A program made the translations under genes and the position numbers. This document shows, in pieces, positions 4,443-29,778 of a DNA stretch of 64,000 nucleotides (its first letter is position 1; every line of letters starts with the position of its first letter). This DNA is from a virus. Below the pieces are notes generated by a model. It ran no database searches and had not been told where the DNA came from. It saw only the letters and a list, made by a program, of their open reading frames with translations. Where the stretch lies: IMG/VR virus record IMGVR_UViG_3300027833_001604, positions 45,014 to 109,013 of that record. One strand, 5' to 3'.

Positions 4443-4799
4443 CTAATTATTGCTACAGTTGTTAACACATACCTTAGGCGGCATGTCACTTTTCCAACCT
4501 TCGTAGTAAACATGAGTTTGAAATATTTCATGTGCAATGATTTCTTCAAGGCTATGATGTTCTAAATTATTCCAATTTGGATCATTTTCCATTAGTGTCA
4601 TTATGCGTGTATCTTCTTTTAAGTCTTTGGTATCTTTTTCTACAAGTTGACCACTACCATCTTTTTTGTATACATTTCGCATATCCCATGCATTACTAAA
4701 GAAGCAACAAGGCCACACTATGCCTTCGGGTGTTACTTCCCAACGTCTTACATCATTGTGATAATCAATTGCTTTACATTTAATATCACACTTAGGCAT
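4443..4799 (-). CDS. stand-alone SPASM/twitch Fe-S domain protein
   Basis: C...EVTPEGIVWPCC...CVNNC; resembles the C-terminus of 20173-21237. Confidence 0.75.
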   Translation of the reverse strand: MPKCDIKCKAIDYHNDVRRWEVTPEGIVWPCCFFSNAWDMRNVYKKDGSGQLVEKDTKDLKEDTRIMTLMENDPNWNNLEHHSLEEIIAHEIFQTHVYYEGWKSDMPPKVCVNNCSNN

Positions 4800-5445
4800 A
4801 ATTGTAACCTATATTAATCTCATTGTCGGCACATAGTTTATCACATGCTTGCATATTTGTATCTGTAATTAATCCATAAGAACGATCATTGTAACGGAAT
4901 ATAATATTAACATTCATGTCATCTGCTAGTTGTTTAGCTAATGTAACCTGTTGCCAATTCCAATCAAATATTAGATATAACCAATTAGTATTGCCACCGT
5001 TACTAGAAAATGCTTTCATATTATCAATTGCTCGGTCAAAGTCAACGCCTTCTCTATACAACCAGTTAACATCATGTGTGGCGCCATCTATTGCAAAGTC
5101 TATCTTTAATCTTTGCTTATACTTTTGTGCAATTGTTTCATACCAATCTGGTGTGCGTAGTCCACCGTTTGTTGATATACTAACCATTGGAGCATAATCC
5201 AATGCAGTTTGTATAAAGGTATCAACTTGTGGATGCATCATAGGATCGCCAAACTCTCCACAAAATTCAATGTCGTCAAGTTCTACAGTTTTAAGATTTG
5301 ATAGTCTGCGTTTAAATACTTCTAGGTCCATGTGCTTTAATTTGACCCATTCATTCTTTTCGCCAGTTTCTTCATTGGTTCTAGCACAACTACGACATTT
5401 GGCTTGACAATAAGTTGTAAGTGCAAAGTCAAAAGAATGTTTCAT
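4792..5445 (-). CDS. radical SAM protein (core domain only)
   Basis: CQAKCRSC, GEFGDP, STNG, FAIDG. Confidence 0.9.
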   Translation of the reverse strand: MKHSFDFALTTYCQAKCRSCARTNEETGEKNEWVKLKHMDLEVFKRRLSNLKTVELDDIEFCGEFGDPMMHPQVDTFIQTALDYAPMVSISTNGGLRTPDWYETIAQKYKQRLKIDFAIDGATHDVNWLYREGVDFDRAIDNMKAFSSNGGNTNWLYLIFDWNWQQVTLAKQLADDMNVNIIFRYNDRSYGLITDTNMQACDKLCADNEINIGYNYA

Positions 5446-6077
5446 CTCTCTCGTAACCGCTCTTGTATAAATCTAATGCTATCGTCTGTTACTTGTGCAT
5501 TAACTACTAACCAAATGCTATCGTGTGATGTGCTGCAATTAAATAATGTGTGTTGCTTTGTTGTATTGACTACATAACACTCGCCATAATCAAAGTGAAG
5601 TGTGTTATTTTCTAACATGAATCTACAATGAGGTGCGTTACAATTTTCTAATGCCCATATAAGTCTAAAACTAGTTTGCTCACCCCATACATGATCTCTA
5701 TGTGGTGGAAAGTATCCACCTGGTGGTAGTCTTAGGAAGTGTGATCTAACACTCCAGTCTAACATAGGTCCTACTACTCGTTGTAACTCAGAGCTGGTAT
5801 GATATAATTCTGTAGGAACATTAAAATCTTCTTCTTGGAAGTTTGTTCCATACTCTCTATTCCATTCACCTAAACTATCTAGTGCTGGTCCTGGGCCACA
5901 CTTACCACTTTCATTAATAATACACAAGCCGTGACGTTTAATCCAATCTTTGCGTGGATTATACTTTGCCCACTTGTCATCATGCACTGAGACTTCGCCA
6001 AGCAATTTGTCTATATCAAATTCGGCGCCAATCTGATAAAAGTCACCGAACTGCGTAATTTTTGAAATATCATTCAA
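5442..6077 (-). CDS. AspH/LpxO-like 2OG-Fe(II) oxygenase
   Basis: LPPGGYFPPHRD (HxD) ... NTTKQH distal His. Confidence 0.75.
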   Translation of the reverse strand: MNDISKITQFGDFYQIGAEFDIDKLLGEVSVHDDKWAKYNPRKDWIKRHGLCIINESGKCGPGPALDSLGEWNREYGTNFQEEDFNVPTELYHTSSELQRVVGPMLDWSVRSHFLRLPPGGYFPPHRDHVWGEQTSFRLIWALENCNAPHCRFMLENNTLHFDYGECYVVNTTKQHTLFNCSTSHDSIWLVVNAQVTDDSIRFIQERLRER

Positions 6078-6086
6078 TTTGATTTC

Positions 6087-28404: not shown

Positions 28405-28413
28405 GTTGTTCCT

Positions 28414-29118
28414 TTAAATTTTATAAACTGCTTTATTGTTACCTGTATTTATTAACTCCCAGGTGTCCTCTGTTGCTGTTCCTGTTATCTGTAAGCATGG
28501 TCTTTTGGTCCAACTACCGTTCCATGTAACGTGTGGTAGTGTGCTCCATTCCCATGCAAATATTGTTCCTGCTTTCCACTGTGTATACACAAGGTTTCCA
28601 AACTGAAATATCTGTCCTGGTTCCCAATCTTCTAATGTAATTAAAAAACGTATCTTATCAGGATGTTGATACTTAAACTCTGGGTTATCAATAACTCTAT
28701 CCTTACGTGGATTGCCTGGTAAGTTATCAATGTGCCACATAAGTTGATCGTTTGGATATTGATCATTAAATTTACATGTTAGTTTCTCATCTGTATTGAA
28801 ACACAACATGTCTGTAATCTTTGTAAACTGTGGAAACTCTCCTGGAAACTTATCGTAATTAACTTTACGAAACATAGTTGCTTCGGGCTTTCCATCTGGA
28901 TTGTCTGCATCTTCTACTGTGTGATCTTCGCTTTTGACATTAGCCGCATGCTCATATCGTTGTTCGTTATAGTTTTGATTTGTAACACCTTTGCTACGTG
29001 CATGTTCTACTTCTGCTTTCCAGTCACCCTGTAACACTCCTACAATCTTAACGTATTCACCTTCTTTGTCCTCTTTGAATTTATCAAAGTGCCAAGGTTG
29101 CTTAAAGGGTGAGGGCAT
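28414..29118 (-). CDS. 2OG-Fe(II)/cupin oxygenase-like protein
   Basis: WHID, LEDWEPGQ, LPH...N...RPCLQITG. Confidence 0.7.
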   Translation of the reverse strand: MPSPFKQPWHFDKFKEDKEGEYVKIVGVLQGDWKAEVEHARSKGVTNQNYNEQRYEHAANVKSEDHTVEDADNPDGKPEATMFRKVNYDKFPGEFPQFTKITDMLCFNTDEKLTCKFNDQYPNDQLMWHIDNLPGNPRKDRVIDNPEFKYQHPDKIRFLITLEDWEPGQIFQFGNLVYTQWKAGTIFAWEWSTLPHVTWNGSWTKRPCLQITGTATEDTWELINTGNNKAVYKI

Positions 29119-29778
29119 TTAGTTCTCCGGGATTTTACAAGTTGCGATGTAGACATCGTTCCAATTGTTGTCCATGTATTTAGCCTCTGATTTATCAAAG
29201 CCTTTTATATCTTTAAATGTAGTTTCTGGATTATACAGTTGCCATTGCATATCTTTACGCATTGCAAAGTCTGTTATCTTTGCATTTTCGTTCCAAATAT
29301 GTTTACGCATGTTATTATAGTCTGTGTAGCCTGGACGATAGTCTGGATAATGTCCTTCACTAAAGTCCATTACTTCACTCCACCATGCAAAGCTCTTTTG
29401 ATTTTCTCTATAACACAACACAATATAATCACCCGGAAAGTGATTATACAAATAGTCTAAGTTGAAGTGTCTTGCAAAGAAGTGACTTTTAATTACACGT
29501 GGGCCTTTACCAGAGAATACATTATCAATATCGTCTTGTAGTTTGTGAGGTTCAACAAAATTGAAGTCTACCCAGTCTTCGCCACAACCCATACCAGGAC
29601 CCCAATAGCTACCACGGTGGCCATTGTTTGTGTCTGTTGGGTTTCTGGGTCTATGGTATTGTGTTCTGTCAGGTGTCTCGTCTGTAGTGTCTGCTCCTAC
29701 AACTTTACGAAGTTGAAGATCTATTCCACTCCATTTACTACCTGGAACTCCTGCAAACCATATATTTGTATTATTCAT
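29119..29778 (-). CDS. sulfotransferase-like P-loop protein
   Basis: GVPGSKWS (5'-PSB-like), IKSH, FPGDYIVLCYR. Confidence 0.55.
   Translation of the reverse strand: MNNTNIWFAGVPGSKWSGIDLQLRKVVGADTTDETPDRTQYHRPRNPTDTNNGHRGSYWGPGMGCGEDWVDFNFVEPHKLQDDIDNVFSGKGPRVIKSHFFARHFNLDYLYNHFPGDYIVLCYRENQKSFAWWSEVMDFSEGHYPDYRPGYTDYNNMRKHIWNENAKITDFAMRKDMQWQLYNPETTFKDIKGFDKSEAKYMDNNWNDVYIATCKIPEN

What the first reader, a model, noticed from the sequence alone, without database searches (positions are those of the whole stretch)
4443..29778. 25-kb phage-encoded radical SAM tailoring-enzyme island with no scaffold enzyme
Seen: ten radical SAM genes (CX3CX2C plus GGE/GDP), five 2OG/Fe(II)-type oxygenase-like genes, a PLP enzyme, amidinotransferase, SDR, sulfotransferase-like protein, lipase, SGNH hydrolase and MTA/SAH nucleosidase. 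Most are translationally coupled on one strand. No NRPS/PKS, transporter or obvious precursor peptide is present. Known: this enzyme mix is typical of natural-product or glycan tailoring clusters, not of phage replication modules. Inference: the phage builds or installs an undescribed, heavily modified moiety on a pre-existing scaffold, such as virion proteins/glycans, host LPS or DNA. This is the best candidate for a new system in the window.
Basis: partly seen in the sequence, partly recalled or inferred. Interest (0 to 1): 0.9.

Follow-up and report, generated by a model that had tools for sequence, protein, structure and literature searches.

The report
Jumbo-phage radical-SAM sugar-tailoring gene island
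An uncultured marine giant phage devotes about 26 kb to ten intact radical-SAM enzymes plus amino-, guanidino-, hydroxyl-, sulfo-, methyl- and sugar-transfer enzymes; the block is conserved in related phages and in predatory Bdellovibrio-type bacteria and most likely edits a sugar-type molecule whose identity and target nobody has tested.

Summary
The island is real. All ten radical SAM (rSAM) genes are intact. Seven pass the cut-off of NCBIfam NF033640 (N_Twi_rSAM, auxiliary Cys domain before the core). The amidinotransferase, SDR, lipase, MTA/SAH nucleosidase and two AspH-type cupins are confirmed by sequence. The sulfotransferase call is supported by fold only. Three oxygenase-like genes and the PLP gene rest on motifs or weak hits. 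The SGNH call is unverified.

The contig is a fragment (about 30%) of a Rak2/Atu_ph07-like jumbo phage. Gene order is kept in four related contigs and reduced in a fifth; 32 hold the core gene, so a chimera is unlikely.

Chromosomes of Bdellovibrionota carry the same gene set, with orthologs up to 66% identical, alongside glycosyltransferases, methyltransferases and SGNH proteins. A cyanobacterial protein fuses sulfotransferase, N_Twi_rSAM and aminotransferase domains. The phage also encodes MetK and an Fe-S carrier.

Best reading (about 0.45): stepwise editing and transfer of a sugar-type substrate; target unknown.

Similar phage modules were noted in 2010, 2017 and 2020 without a product. 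This scan has found the same island on at least 22 other genomes.

The parts
4443..4799 (-). Cys-rich SPASM-like ORF (118 aa); split-off C-terminal half belonging with 4792-5445
   Evidence: Pfam SPASM E 4e-4, 21.0 bits against cut-off 21.5. It overlaps the upstream rSAM ORF by 8 nt. Separate matches to both ORFs recur in G001 and G002.
4792..5445 (-). Radical SAM core (217 aa), canonical order, paralog of 20173-21237
   Evidence: PF04055 40.2 bits. CX3CX2C at residue 13. 31% identity to g20173.
5442..6077 (-). Asp/Asn beta-hydroxylase-type cupin (2OG/Fe(II) oxygenase-like)
   Evidence: PF05118 25.3 bits against cut-off 22.6. 34% identity to a Bdellovibrionales ORF, L048:12953-13573.
6087..6923 (-). 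Class 3 lipase / alpha-beta hydrolase; accessory gene
   Evidence: PF01764 64.5 bits. Among the relatives examined it occurs only in G001.
6932..8062 (-). Radical SAM with Cys-rich C-terminus; the commonest bacterial partner of N_Twi_rSAM
   Evidence: PF04055 52.6 bits. 63-65% identity to Bdellovibrionales orthologs; 41 ORFs in 37 of 74 bacterial loci.
8052..8705 (-). Short SDR-like oxidoreductase. I infer that the true start is the internal ATG near 8624.
   Evidence: Profile A10 against PDB: farnesol dehydrogenase 3.6e-10 and many other SDRs. 42% identity to a bacterial homolog.
8617..9843 (-). N_Twi_rSAM paralog 1
   Evidence: NF033640 374.7 bits against cut-off 170. SPASM-like region 13-85 lies before rSAM 126-285.
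9990..10961 (-). N_Twi_rSAM paralog 2 (short form, 323 aa)
   Evidence: NF033640 184.3 bits.
10939..11694 (-). Asp/Asn beta-hydroxylase-type cupin
   Evidence: PF05118 42 bits. 34% identity to L037:1523-2266. Invariant HxD...H.
11694..13172 (-). Two-domain protein: GT-A glycosyltransferase-like fold (about residues 8-275) plus class I methyltransferase-like fold (about 275-492)
   Evidence: No Pfam or NCBIfam hit. AF2 model pLDDT 89.4, pTM 0.85. Foldseek and VIA matches: GT-A enzymes at Z about 10 (CHSY3, HAS, PBCV-1 A64R, STIV A197, mimivirus R699); methyltransferase fold at Z 12.3.
13172..14623 (-). Diverged paralog of 11694-13172 (same orphan family)
   Evidence: 21% identity, E 3e-17. The family has only 53 homologs in 5.8 billion proteins, none with a Pfam domain. 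The pair is kept in G001, G003, G004 and G005.
14620..14930 (-). Two small ATGA-coupled ORFs (59 aa at 14751-14930; 44 aa at 14620-14754); accessory, function unknown
   Evidence: The 59-aa ORF is 84% identical in G004; no match in G001, G003 or G005. The 44-aa ORF was not found elsewhere.
14927..16162 (-). N_Twi_rSAM paralog 3
   Evidence: NF033640 313 bits.
16162..17370 (-). N_Twi_rSAM paralog 4
   Evidence: NF033640 235.7 bits.
17370..18356 (-). Probable fold-type I PLP enzyme (aminotransferase-like); weak assignment
   Evidence: Aminotran_1_2 19.5 bits against cut-off 19.7. PDB aromatic aminotransferase E 0.05. Invariant D188 and S213xxK216. 44% identity to Bdellovibrionota homologs that sit between rSAM genes.
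18346..18933 (-). Cys-free 195-aa protein of unknown function; fast-evolving
   Evidence: No hit in Pfam, NCBIfam or PHROGs. 42-46% identity in G001 and G005, where the neighbouring genes are 69-95% identical.
18930..20183 (-). N_Twi_rSAM paralog 5; lacks the CC ligand pair of the N-terminal domain
   Evidence: NF033640 261.4 bits; alignment A4.
20173..21237 (-). Radical SAM with C-terminal SPASM/twitch-like Cys motifs (canonical order)
   Evidence: PF04055 38.4 bits. Twelve Cys. Homologs lie next to g26971-like and g6932-like genes in bacterial loci.
21241..22329 (-). Amidinotransferase (AGAT / StrB1 / HsvA / SxtG family)
   Evidence: Profile A1 against PDB, E 3.5e-29 to 5e-20. Invariant H220, D222, H340, C341. 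44% identity to Bdellovibrionota. 27% identity to CP220 gp086.
22469..23305 (+). KdoO-like Fe(II)/2OG oxygenase candidate; plus strand, divergent from 21241
   Evidence: PF11004 17.5 bits, below cut-off 25. Invariant H142xD144...H243. Conserved at 64-92% identity in relatives.
23298..24314 (+). Unknown protein with a conserved HxD...H...R pattern (oxygenase-like by motif only)
   Evidence: No family or PDB hit. Invariant H102, D104, H155, R170. Absent from G003 and G004.
24299..25168 (-). Unknown protein; the SGNH assignment is unverified
   Evidence: No hit in Pfam, NCBIfam, PHROGs or PDB. No ortholog in any relative examined.
25149..26423 (-). N_Twi_rSAM paralog 6; part of the conserved core
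   Evidence: NF033640 295.7 bits. 70-92% identity in relatives.
26423..26974 (-). Short MTA/SAH (5'-deoxyadenosine) nucleosidase-family protein; inferred by-product removal
   Evidence: PF01048 51.2 bits. phmmer against PDB hits many MtnN entries, 2.6e-9. It always lies between the two core rSAM genes in relatives.
26971..28404 (-). N_Twi_rSAM paralog 7; the most conserved gene of the island
   Evidence: NF033640 419.1 bits. 70-93% identity in 32 viral contigs. 50-66% identity to 29 bacterial orthologs.
28414..29118 (-). Cupin/2OG-oxygenase-like by motif only
   Evidence: No family hit. Invariant H129xD131...H196. hhalign against the AspH-like profile aligns these motifs, but only at E 0.037.
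29119..29778 (-). Sulfotransferase-fold protein with a P-loop-like GVPGSKWS motif
   Evidence: AF2 pLDDT 79.6. The six best VIA matches are sulfotransferases, Z 10.7-8.6. No sequence-level hit.
29824..30769 (-). Two conserved flanking genes of unknown function (104 aa and 200 aa) that always precede the island
   Evidence: Conserved and in the same order in relatives. 30167-30769 matches phrog_15894, function unknown.
40115..41206 (-). S-adenosylmethionine synthetase (MetK), 10 kb outside the island; inferred SAM supply
   Evidence: phrog_1569 5e-115. About 49% identity to annotated MetK genes.

Best explanation
The block 4443-29778, with its two conserved leader genes up to 30769, is a functional and vertically conserved module of an uncultured marine Rak2/Atu_ph07-like jumbo phage. 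Its enzymes edit a carbohydrate-type substrate step by step and then pass it on. The substrate would be a nucleotide sugar, an aminocyclitol-like unit or a growing glycan.

SHOWN. The enzyme families, their intactness, their conservation and synteny, and their co-occurrence with glycosyltransferases in bacteria.

INFERRED, step by step.
- The seven N_Twi_rSAM paralogs and three canonical rSAM/SPASM-type enzymes carry out radical C-H chemistry on the sugar: oxidation of a hydroxyl to a ketone, epimerisation, dehydration or deoxygenation. The twitch enzymes BtrN, NeoN and AprD4 do this in aminoglycoside pathways.
- The PLP enzyme turns a keto group into an amine.
- The amidinotransferase turns an amine into a guanidine.
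- The SDR reduces or oxidises.
- The cupin/2OG-type proteins hydroxylate.
- The sulfotransferase-fold protein adds sulfate.
- The two GT-A plus methyltransferase-like proteins transfer the unit and methylate it.
- The phage supports this chemistry with its own MetK (SAM supply), an MTA/SAH-type nucleosidase inside the island (removal of the inhibitory 5'-deoxyadenosine) and an A-type Fe-S carrier.

The acceptor is not determined. Candidates, roughly in order, are a virion surface protein or glycan, the host envelope, and DNA.

The module or its parts have been exchanged with Bdellovibrionota.
For: ENZYME FAMILIES.

PARALOG DIVERGENCE. The seven N_Twi paralogs share only 20-31% identity, so they are old and functionally distinct rather than recent copies.

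SYNTENY. Gene order is kept in G001, G003, G004 and G005 at 32-95% identity and is reduced in G002. The 26971-26423-25149 core is present in most of the 32 viral contigs. Relatives carry up to about 15 N_Twi genes.

GLYCAN CONTEXT.
- g11694 and g13172 have a GT-A fold at Z about 10, including viral capsid glycosyltransferases, fused to a methyltransferase fold at Z 12.3.
- Bacterial loci that hold orthologs also hold GT2 (6 loci), GT1/28-like, methyltransferase, SGNH/GDSL, APH-like kinase and class V aminotransferase genes.
- Synechocystis salina encodes a 1597-aa fusion of Sulfotransfer_3, N_Twi_rSAM and Aminotran_3, sitting next to a GT2 gene and a second N_Twi_rSAM.
- The CP220 module has five rSAM genes, an amidinotransferase and two NDP-sugar-transferase-fold genes.

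BACTERIAL COUNTERPART.
- 74 loci, mostly Bdellovibrionota and including complete chromosomes. Orthologs: g26971 50-66%, g6932 63-65%, PLP 44%, amidinotransferase 44%, SDR 42% identity.
- A 26-kb chromosomal island holds about 12 rSAM genes between EF-G and Leu/Phe-tRNA protein transferase.
- NF033640 occurs in 26 of 121 sampled Bdellovibrionota genomes, with up to 11 copies.

SUPPORT GENES: MetK, nucleosidase, A-type carrier at contig 28251-28565.

No conserved precursor peptide was found.
Against: - No enzyme of the N_Twi_rSAM family has a known substrate, and I found no paper on it. Every reaction step is therefore an analogy.
- The GT-A-like domains show no canonical DxD motif; the conserved motif is WF[DE]GxWP. 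They may not be transferases.
- The island contains no recognisable nucleotide-sugar synthase, flippase or polymerase.
- The best structural matches of the sulfotransferase-fold protein are tyrosylprotein sulfotransferases. AspH-type cupins and most characterised SPASM/twitch enzymes act on peptides. A protein substrate therefore remains possible.
- The PLP, the SGNH and three of the oxygenase assignments are weak.
- No reductant (flavodoxin or ferredoxin) was found on this fragment.
Confidence: 0.45

Rival explanations
1. Protein or peptide hypermodification. The rSAM, cupin, sulfotransferase-fold and amidinotransferase enzymes act directly on amino-acid side chains of a phage virion protein, or of a host protein, by cross-links, epimerisation, beta-hydroxylation, Tyr sulfation or Lys/Orn guanidinylation. 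The GT-A-like proteins would then glycosylate that protein.
For: - As I recall, most characterised SPASM/twitch rSAM enzymes modify peptides. The secondary NCBIfam hits are to peptide maturases, all far below their cut-offs.
- PF05118 is the Asp/Asn beta-hydroxylase family.
- The best fold matches of 29119-29778 are tyrosylprotein sulfotransferases.
- A fast-evolving Cys-free 195-aa protein sits inside the island, and two small coupled ORFs are present.
Against: - No precursor-like ORF is conserved across relatives. The 59-aa ORF is found in G004 only, with no match in G001, G003 or G005; the 44-aa ORF is found nowhere else.
- No protease, RRE-type or export gene is present.
- Bacterial contexts are rich in GT, SGNH, kinase and aminotransferase genes, which are typical of glycan loci.
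- The amidinotransferase's nearest solved relatives act on small amines or inosamine, not on proteins.
Confidence: 0.2
2. A diffusible small molecule. The island makes an aminoglycoside-like or aminocyclitol-like compound, or a guanidinylated polyamine, during infection. Its role would be to poison competitors, manipulate the host or act as a signal. It would not be a decoration attached to a macromolecule.
For: - The amidinotransferase is closest to HsvA, StrB1 (streptomycin pathway) and SxtG.
- Twitch rSAM plus PLP aminotransferase plus SDR is, as I recall, the logic of 2-deoxystreptamine and neomycin pathways (BtrN, NeoN).
- An APH-like kinase sits in a bacterial island.
- Predatory bacteria and lytic phages could both profit from a toxin.
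Against: - No exporter and no self-resistance gene is present in the island.
- No cyclitol synthase or core-forming enzyme was recognised.
- GT-A plus methyltransferase fusions and GT2 neighbours point to transfer onto an acceptor.
- The gene content is mosaic between close relatives. That pattern is more typical of surface-structure loci than of a fixed metabolite pathway.
Confidence: 0.15
3. DNA or nucleotide hypermodification. The enzymes build a complex adduct on a phage DNA base, possibly linked to the 7-deazaguanine genes 25 kb away, to evade restriction.
For: - The same window carries a 7-deazaguanine-type operon that includes a GT-B glycosyltransferase and an epimerase.
- As I recall, rSAM and PLP enzymes take part in thymidine hypermodification in some phages.
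- Campylobacter phage CP220, which has the nearest cultured module, replaces all G with 7-amido-7-deazaguanine (PMC10516641).
Against: - The CP220 deazaguanine chemistry is explained by other genes; in CP220 and CPt10 the rSAM module is interchangeable and was judged non-essential (PMC2853527).
- The island has no DNA-binding, transglycosylase, kinase or nucleotide-handling domain.
- Bdellovibrionota keep the set in chromosomal loci next to an outer-membrane beta-barrel-like protein (judged by eye from its sequence) and GT genes.
Confidence: 0.08

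Closest known systems
Radical SAM plus 'glycine amidinotransferase' module of Campylobacter phages CP220 and CPt10 (Timms et al. 2010, PMC2853527)
   Same: - One contiguous phage block holds five rSAM genes, an AGAT-family amidinotransferase (27% identical to 21241-22329) and two NDP-sugar-transferase-fold genes.
- Each genome carries 11-12 rSAM genes in total.
- The authors describe it as an exchangeable module of unknown product.
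   Different: - The CP220 rSAM genes have the core first (canonical order). None gave an N_Twi-type full-length match.
- The module is half the size and follows the baseplate lysozyme and PAAR genes.
- It has no MTAN, sulfotransferase-fold, cupin, PLP or GT-A/MTase fusion genes.
- The phage is a 178-kb Eucampyvirinae, not a jumbo Rak2-like phage.
NCBIfam NF033640, N_Twi_rSAM (twitch domain-containing radical SAM protein)
   Same: Seven island genes score 184-419 bits against a cut-off of 170, over the full model length for six of them. The Cys-rich auxiliary domain precedes the CX3CX2C core.
   Different: The family is defined by sequence only. I found no substrate, reaction or structure in the library. 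One paralog (18930-20183) lacks the CC pair, and one (9990-10961) is shortened.
Twitch/SPASM rSAM enzymes of sugar and aminocyclitol pathways (BtrN, NeoN, AprD4, DesII, BlsE); named from my own knowledge
   Same: An rSAM with one auxiliary cluster works beside PLP aminotransferase, dehydrogenase and amidinotransferase genes. StrB1 is a top structural relative of 21241-22329. BlsE and other sugar-acting families appear only as weak secondary hits.
   Different: - No island gene reaches the cut-off of any of these families.
- In those enzymes the auxiliary domain is C-terminal.
- No cyclitol or aminoglycoside core-forming gene is present.
Host recognition cluster of pelagimyophages and cyanomyophages (Zaragoza-Solas et al. 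2020, PMC7029224), and the rSAM-rich T4-like marine genomes of Nishimura et al. 2017 (PMC5332604)
   Same: [quoted passage not shown] One 183-kb genome has 12 rSAM genes plus an A-type Fe-S carrier. This contig has the same carrier family.
   Different: - The HRC is defined by its place between VrlC and gp14 together with tail fibres. No tail-fibre gene was recognised beside this island.
- The phage lineage differs: the DNA polymerase is nearest to Rak2/Atu_ph07-like jumbo phages.
- Those papers did not resolve the gene families or the bacterial counterpart.
Virus-encoded glycosylation machinery of giant viruses (PBCV-1 A64R, mimivirus R699)
   Same: The GT-A-like domain of 11694-13172 matches these viral capsid or fibril glycosyltransferases by fold: 2p6w Z 10.1, 9dyt Z 9.3. 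The shared idea is that a virus makes its own unusual glycan.
   Different: Fold-level similarity only (5-10% identity). No DxD motif. Those viruses are not known to me to use rSAM-rich pathways.

Membership tests
Radical SAM superfamily (PF04055) | CX3CX2C cluster motif near the start of the core, and a Pfam score at or over 29.5 bits | tested here: met
   All ten genes have one CX3CX2C and score 29.5-52.6 bits; 16162-17370 sits exactly at the cut-off.
Radical SAM superfamily (PF04055) | Reductive cleavage of SAM to the 5'-deoxyadenosyl radical | not testable with these tools
   Needs anaerobic biochemistry.
NF033640 N_Twi_rSAM | Whole-protein score over the curated cut-off of 170 bits | tested here: met
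   Seven genes pass: 419.1, 374.7, 313, 295.7, 261.4, 235.7 and 184.3 bits. The other three rSAM genes score 32-50 bits and are not members.
NF033640 N_Twi_rSAM | Cys-rich twitch-like domain on the N-terminal side of the rSAM core | tested here: met
   The Pfam SPASM match lies at residues 13-98, before the rSAM match at residues 120-316, in five of the seven. Conserved C14, CC, C95 and C98 in g26971 numbering; the CC pair is missing in 18930-20183.
Amidinotransferase (AGAT / StrB1 / HsvA / SxtG) | Sequence membership plus the Cys-His-Asp catalytic residues | tested here: met
   Profile against PDB E 3.5e-29 to 5e-20 over about 250 residues. Invariant H220, D222 and H340-C341 near the C-terminus. 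No Pfam hit from the single sequence.
MTA/SAH nucleosidase (MtnN/Pfs, PF01048) | Sequence membership | tested here: met
   PF01048 51.2 bits against cut-off 25.1. 42 PDB nucleosidases at E 0.006 or better, nearly all MTA/SAH or aminodeoxyfutalosine nucleosidases; best E 2.6e-9.
MTA/SAH nucleosidase (MtnN/Pfs, PF01048) | Full-length fold and catalytic acid/base residues | tested here: inconclusive
   The protein is 183 aa against about 230. The alignment covers residues 20-167 against 42-210 of MtnN. By eye a DMEG and a TDMAD stretch look like the catalytic motifs, but I did not test this.
Sulfotransferase (PAPS-dependent) | Sulfotransferase fold | tested here: met
   The six best VIA matches are sulfotransferases (TPST1 Z 10.7, rmsd 3.2, 170 aligned). 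The best kinase matches reach 8.6. Foldseek gave only weak kinase-type rows, E 0.027 or worse.
Sulfotransferase (PAPS-dependent) | Sequence membership and the 5'-PSB and 3'-PB motifs | tested here: inconclusive
   No Pfam, NCBIfam or PDB sequence hit. hhalign against the Sulfotransfer_3 domain of the Synechocystis fusion found nothing. GVPGSKWS resembles a 5'-PSB loop by eye only.
GT-A glycosyltransferase | GT-A Rossmann-like fold | tested here: met
   Residues 8-275 of 11694-13172 match many GT-A enzymes at Z 9-10.7, with Foldseek E 1e-4 to 5e-3.
GT-A glycosyltransferase | DxD metal/nucleotide-sugar binding motif | tested here: inconclusive
   No conserved DxD in alignments A6 and A7; the conserved motifs are WF[DE]GxWP and AGH.
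Fe(II)/2OG oxygenase, AspH type (PF05118) | Pfam membership and the HxD...H facial triad | tested here: met
   Met for 5442-6077 (25.3 bits) and 10939-11694 (42 bits), with invariant H166, D168 and H214. For 22469-23305, 23298-24314 and 28414-29118 only the motif is present and the sequence tests are sub-threshold.
RiPP biosynthetic cluster | A precursor peptide gene conserved with the maturases | tested here: not met
   Two small ORFs exist. One is found in one relative only and the other in none.
CP220/CPt10-type phage rSAM-amidinotransferase module | Contiguous rSAM genes, an AGAT-family amidinotransferase and sugar-transferase-fold genes in a phage | tested here: met
   Homology is shown for the amidinotransferase (27%) and for the canonical-order rSAM genes (22-30%).
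Host recognition cluster (HRC) of marine T4-like myophages | Position inside the structural module, between VrlC and gp14, together with tail-fibre genes | tested here: inconclusive
   No structural gene was recognised next to the island. The left neighbours have no PHROG or phage tblastn hit. The right neighbours are MoxR/VWA and metabolic genes. The contig is only about 30% of the genome.

The most novel reading that the evidence does not exclude
N_Twi_rSAM enzymes would be an unstudied class of radical enzymes that edit carbohydrates. Marine jumbo phages and predatory Bdellovibrionota would share a toolkit built on them to make a guanidinylated, aminated, hydroxylated and sulfated glycan. 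Both would display this glycan on the particle or cell surface that contacts prey, for recognition or for shielding.
Probability: 0.25. Interest if true: 0.85.

Novelty: new variant of a known kind. Interest (0 to 1): 0.6.

Why it matters
Ten or more distinct radical SAM enzymes in one operon-like block amount to a large reservoir of unknown chemistry. In some relatives the count is about 15 to 23. The block sits in an abundant ocean phage lineage, seen here in 32 independent contigs.

The seven N_Twi paralogs belong to a curated family with no known reaction. The orphan GT-A/methyltransferase family has only 53 members in 5.8 billion proteins.

Three leads make the product testable:
- the link to predatory bacteria;
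- the fusion protein in a culturable cyanobacterium (Synechocystis salina LEGE 00031);
- a minimal version in the culturable Ralstonia phage RsoM2USA.

If the product is a virion or envelope glycan, it bears on how giant phages recognise hosts or evade defences. It would also add a radical-enzyme branch to glycobiology.

The finding is not unique. Literature since 2010, and many earlier windows of this scan, describe the same kind of island.

Tried and rejected
SEARCHES THAT FOUND NOTHING
- Megablast of 19.5 kb of the island against cultured phages.
- tblastn of 6932-8062 and of 607-2010 against cultured phages.
- PHROGs for nine island proteins: mostly no family.
- Profile or sequence searches against PDB for 29119-29778, 28414-29118, 22469-23305, 23298-24314, 24299-25168 and the 11694 family: nothing significant.
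- Flavodoxin and 2Fe-2S ferredoxin families: not found on this fragment.
- Literature searches for 'N-terminal twitch', for the NF033640 product name and for Bdellovibrio rSAM clusters: nothing on function.

COMPARISONS THAT GAVE NO USABLE SIGNAL
- hhalign of the 29119 family against the Sulfotransfer_3 domain of the Synechocystis fusion: no similarity.
- hhalign of 22469-23305 against the AspH-like profile: nothing.
- hhalign of 28414-29118 against the same profile: only E 0.037.
- hhalign of the 11694 family against the bacterial neighbour families cl2 and cl3: not significant. I do not claim they are the split form of the fusion.
- HMMs of the bacterial families cl2, cl3 and cl4 found no counterpart on this contig.

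CALLS THAT DID NOT RUN
I repeated it with a closer alignment. Its two search patterns bias the bacterial loci towards relatives of g8617 and g26971. The predominance of Bdellovibrionota among the 74 loci therefore does not give the family's full range.

READINGS CONSIDERED AND REJECTED
- Chimeric contig: rejected on even composition and on synteny in independent contigs.
- Recent gene amplification: rejected because the paralogs share only 20-31% identity.

Full report
WHAT THE DNA IS

The window is bases 45014-109013 of a 109-kb linear IMG/VR contig that CheckV rates about 30% complete. Its family B DNA polymerase is 42-49% identical to those of Rak2/Atu_ph07-like jumbo myophages of 350-490 kb: Phosso, Atu_ph07, Vibrio phage 2.275.O, GAP32, CBB and 121Q. 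The size estimate of about 360 kb fits that group. GC content is even across the window, 0.34-0.40. Megablast finds no close cultured relative.

CHECKING THE OBSERVATION

ORF calling gives 26 genes of 118-492 aa between 4443 and 29778. All are on the minus strand except a divergent pair at 22469-24314. Most overlap their neighbours by 1-23 nt or lie 0-9 nt apart.

Pfam confirms ten rSAM genes, each with one CX3CX2C and no stop. NCBIfam places seven of them in NF033640, N_Twi_rSAM, at 184-419 bits against a cut-off of 170. In this family the Cys-rich twitch/SPASM-like domain precedes the rSAM core. The other three have the canonical order. One of these is split into a core ORF (4792-5445) and a SPASM-like ORF (4443-4799).

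The seven N_Twi paralogs share only 20-31% identity. This is an old, diversified set, not a recent amplification.

Other assignments, from firm to weak:
- Lipase_3.
- MTA/SAH nucleosidase family.
- Two AspH-type cupins over the Pfam cut-off.
- Amidinotransferase, by profile search against solved structures: HsvA 3.5e-29, StrB1, SxtG and AGAT, with invariant His, Asp and Cys.
- SDR-like.
- Sulfotransferase-like 29119-29778. It has no sequence-level support. Its AF2 model (pLDDT 79.6) matches sulfotransferases best, with TPST1 at Z 10.7 and kinases at 8.6 or less.
- PLP gene, borderline: 19.5 bits against 19.7, with a conserved Asp and SxxK.
- Three further 'oxygenases' rest on HxD...H motifs only.
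- The SGNH call could not be verified. That gene occurs in none of the relatives examined.

The two central 490-aa paralogs (11694-13172 and 13172-14623) have no family assignment. Only 53 homologs exist in 5.8 billion proteins.

A confident AF2 model (pLDDT 89.4, pTM 0.85) shows two domains:
- An N-terminal GT-A glycosyltransferase fold, Z about 10 to chondroitin and hyaluronan synthases, PBCV-1 A64R, STIV A197 and mimivirus R699.
- A C-terminal class I methyltransferase-like fold, Z 12.3.

I saw no canonical DxD motif, so transferase activity is not assured. Even so, 'no scaffold enzyme' is doubtful.

Two small ATGA-coupled ORFs (59 and 44 aa) lie at 14620-14930. One recurs in a single relative and the other in none, so they are not a conserved precursor.

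IS IT A UNIT?

The ortholog of 26971-28404 occurs at 70-93% identity in 32 independent viral contigs. Around it, the trio 26971-26423-25149 is nearly always kept. So are the sulfotransferase-fold gene, the KdoO-like gene, the amidinotransferase and the two upstream genes 29824-30769.

I fetched the wider regions of five relatives. The whole gene order from 30769 down to 6932 is preserved in G001, G005, G004 and G003 at 32-95% identity. Cassettes come and go:
- the lipase is in G001 only;
- 23298-24314 is in G001 and G005 only;
- three or four extra rSAM genes are present in G003 and G004;
- G002 has a reduced set.

Related contigs carry up to about 15 N_Twi genes over the cut-off.

SUPPORT FUNCTIONS

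The nucleosidase sits between the two core rSAM genes. From established biochemistry, MtnN removes 5'-deoxyadenosine, a product inhibitor of rSAM enzymes.

A MetK gene lies 10 kb away at 40115-41206. An A-type Fe-S carrier lies at contig 28251-28565. No flavodoxin or ferredoxin was found on this fragment.

Nishimura et al. 2017 reported the same pairing of an A-type carrier with 12 rSAM genes in a marine T4-like genome (PMC5332604).

THE BACTERIAL COUNTERPART

A pattern scan of one genome per species returned 74 loci, overwhelmingly from Bdellovibrionota and including complete chromosomes. The search patterns bias this set, so it does not give the family's range.

What these loci hold:
- Several N_Twi_rSAM genes each: 180 ORFs in 70 loci.
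- Orthologs of island genes at striking identity. g26971 is 50-66% identical in 29 loci, clearly separated from paralogs at 34% or less. g6932 is 63-65%, the PLP gene 44%, the amidinotransferase 44% and the SDR 42%. The two cupins are 34%, and the GT-A/MTase family has a 24% homolog.
- A recurrent trio of g26971-like, g20173-like and g6932-like genes.
- One Bdellovibrionales chromosome carries a 26-kb island of about 12 rSAM genes, two PLP genes, an SDR, a GT1/28-like transferase and a methyltransferase, lying between EF-G and Leu/Phe-tRNA protein transferase.
- Other loci add GT2 transferases, SGNH/GDSL proteins, an APH-like kinase, QueC-like proteins and a class V aminotransferase.

NF033640 passes its cut-off in 26 of 121 sampled Bdellovibrionota genomes, with up to 11 copies, and in none of 14 model organisms.

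A quick tree places the 33 phage g26971 sequences inside the bacterial radiation. The outgroup branches are long and the careful search did not finish, so I treat the direction of transfer as open.

TWO FURTHER LINKS

First, Synechocystis salina LEGE 00031 encodes a 1597-aa protein that fuses Sulfotransfer_3, an N_Twi_rSAM (over the cut-off) and a class III aminotransferase. A GT2 gene lies upstream and a second N_Twi_rSAM downstream. This Rosetta-stone fusion ties together three activities that are separate neighbours in the phage.

Second, in the culturable Ralstonia jumbo phage RsoM2USA the single N_Twi_rSAM is flanked by two members of bacterial neighbour family cl2 and one of cl3 (E 1e-45 to 1e-84). 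This is the same core seen in Bdellovibrionales.

MECHANISM

Families, conservation and context are shown. All reaction steps are inferred by analogy.

The recurring company of glycosyltransferases, methyltransferases, SGNH proteins, kinases, aminotransferases and an SDR is typical of glycan and amino-sugar loci. So is the absence of a conserved precursor peptide, protease or exporter.

The combination of twitch rSAM, PLP aminotransferase and amidinotransferase mirrors, from my knowledge of aminoglycoside pathways, the sequence hydroxyl to ketone (BtrN), ketone to amine, and amine to guanidine (StrB1). Hydroxylation, sulfation, methylation and transfer would follow.

I give this reading about 0.45. 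Rivals:
- direct protein modification, 0.2. It is favoured by the TPST-like fold, the AspH family and the peptide bias of SPASM enzymes;
- a diffusible aminoglycoside-like or polyamine-like metabolite, 0.15;
- DNA hypermodification, 0.08.

The acceptor is unknown. It could be a virion, the host envelope or DNA. No tail-fibre or other structural gene was recognised beside the island on this fragment.

COMPARISON WITH WHAT IS KNOWN

The nearest described system is the rSAM plus 'glycine amidinotransferase' module of Campylobacter phages CP220 and CPt10 (PMC2853527). I confirmed homology of the amidinotransferase at 27% identity. The CP220 block also holds two NDP-sugar-transferase-fold genes and follows baseplate genes. 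Its rSAM genes are of the canonical order, not N_Twi.

Pelagimyophage host recognition clusters contain glycosyltransferases and rSAM cassettes (PMC7029224), but they are defined by a structural-module position that I could not show here.

None of these papers identifies a product. I found no paper on the N_Twi family.

Earlier notes of this scan report the same island on at least 22 other genomes, with the same reading. I reached the Bdellovibrionota link and the GT-A result before reading those notes. I then checked their two literature leads myself.

VERDICT

This is a real, conserved, rSAM-rich tailoring island, most likely for a sugar-type substrate. It is a larger, N_Twi-dominated variant of a kind of phage module that has been noticed since 2010 and never characterised. 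Interest lies in the unknown chemistry and in the phage-predator sharing. It is lowered by the lack of any direct evidence for product, target or expression, and by prior notice.

Noticed in passing
window 4443-5445: One rSAM/SPASM enzyme is encoded as two ORFs overlapping by 8 nt: the core at 4792-5445 and the Cys-rich tail at 4443-4799. Separate matches to both ORFs recur in G001 and G002. Bacterial homologs and the paralog 20173-21237 are single proteins. This could be a real two-subunit form or a programmed frameshift.
   Followed up: partly
window 31333-34042: A DUF2201 metallopeptidase-like plus VWA protein (31333-32565) and a MoxR-type AAA+ ATPase (32933-34042) lie just upstream of the island. 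As I recall, such pairs act as chaperones for metalloenzyme maturation. A link to the Fe-S enzymes is untested.
   Followed up: no
L108:7125-11918 (Synechocystis salina LEGE 00031): A 1597-aa natural fusion of a sulfotransferase, an N_Twi_rSAM and a class III aminotransferase, next to a GT2 gene and a second N_Twi_rSAM. It is a culturable handle on the family's chemistry.
   Followed up: partly
L130:12890-16629 (Ralstonia phage RsoM2USA, genes 347-350): All four genes are annotated as hypothetical. They are one N_Twi_rSAM flanked by two cl2 proteins and one cl3 protein, the same core as in Bdellovibrionales chromosomes.
   Followed up: partly
window 18346-18933: A Cys-free 195-aa protein inside the island is only 42-46% identical in relatives whose neighbouring genes are 69-95% identical. 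It may be under diversifying selection or be a substrate-recognition or acceptor protein.
   Followed up: no
L081 (contig CANEUJ010000032.1, binned as Neisseriaceae): Its g26971 ortholog is the closest bacterial one (66%) and groups with the phage clade in the quick tree. This 13-kb contig may be a mis-binned phage fragment.
   Followed up: no
G005:C1:9122-10093: In one relative the match to the ortholog of 9990-10961 contains two in-frame TAA stops. This suggests an occasional decay of single cassettes.
   Followed up: no
window 44773-45732 and 52393-59303: A ribose-phosphate pyrophosphokinase and a nucleotide-sugar epimerase-like gene (53106-54161) were seen by PHROGs. The latter lies in a stretch that another first-stage note reads as a 7-deazaguanine DNA-modification operon with a glycosyltransferase. 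I did not examine it.
   Followed up: no
contig C1:9273-10496, about 33519-33965 and 43225-44235 (upstream of the window): Three more rSAM matches lie outside the island on the same contig, so the fragment holds 13 in all.
   Followed up: no
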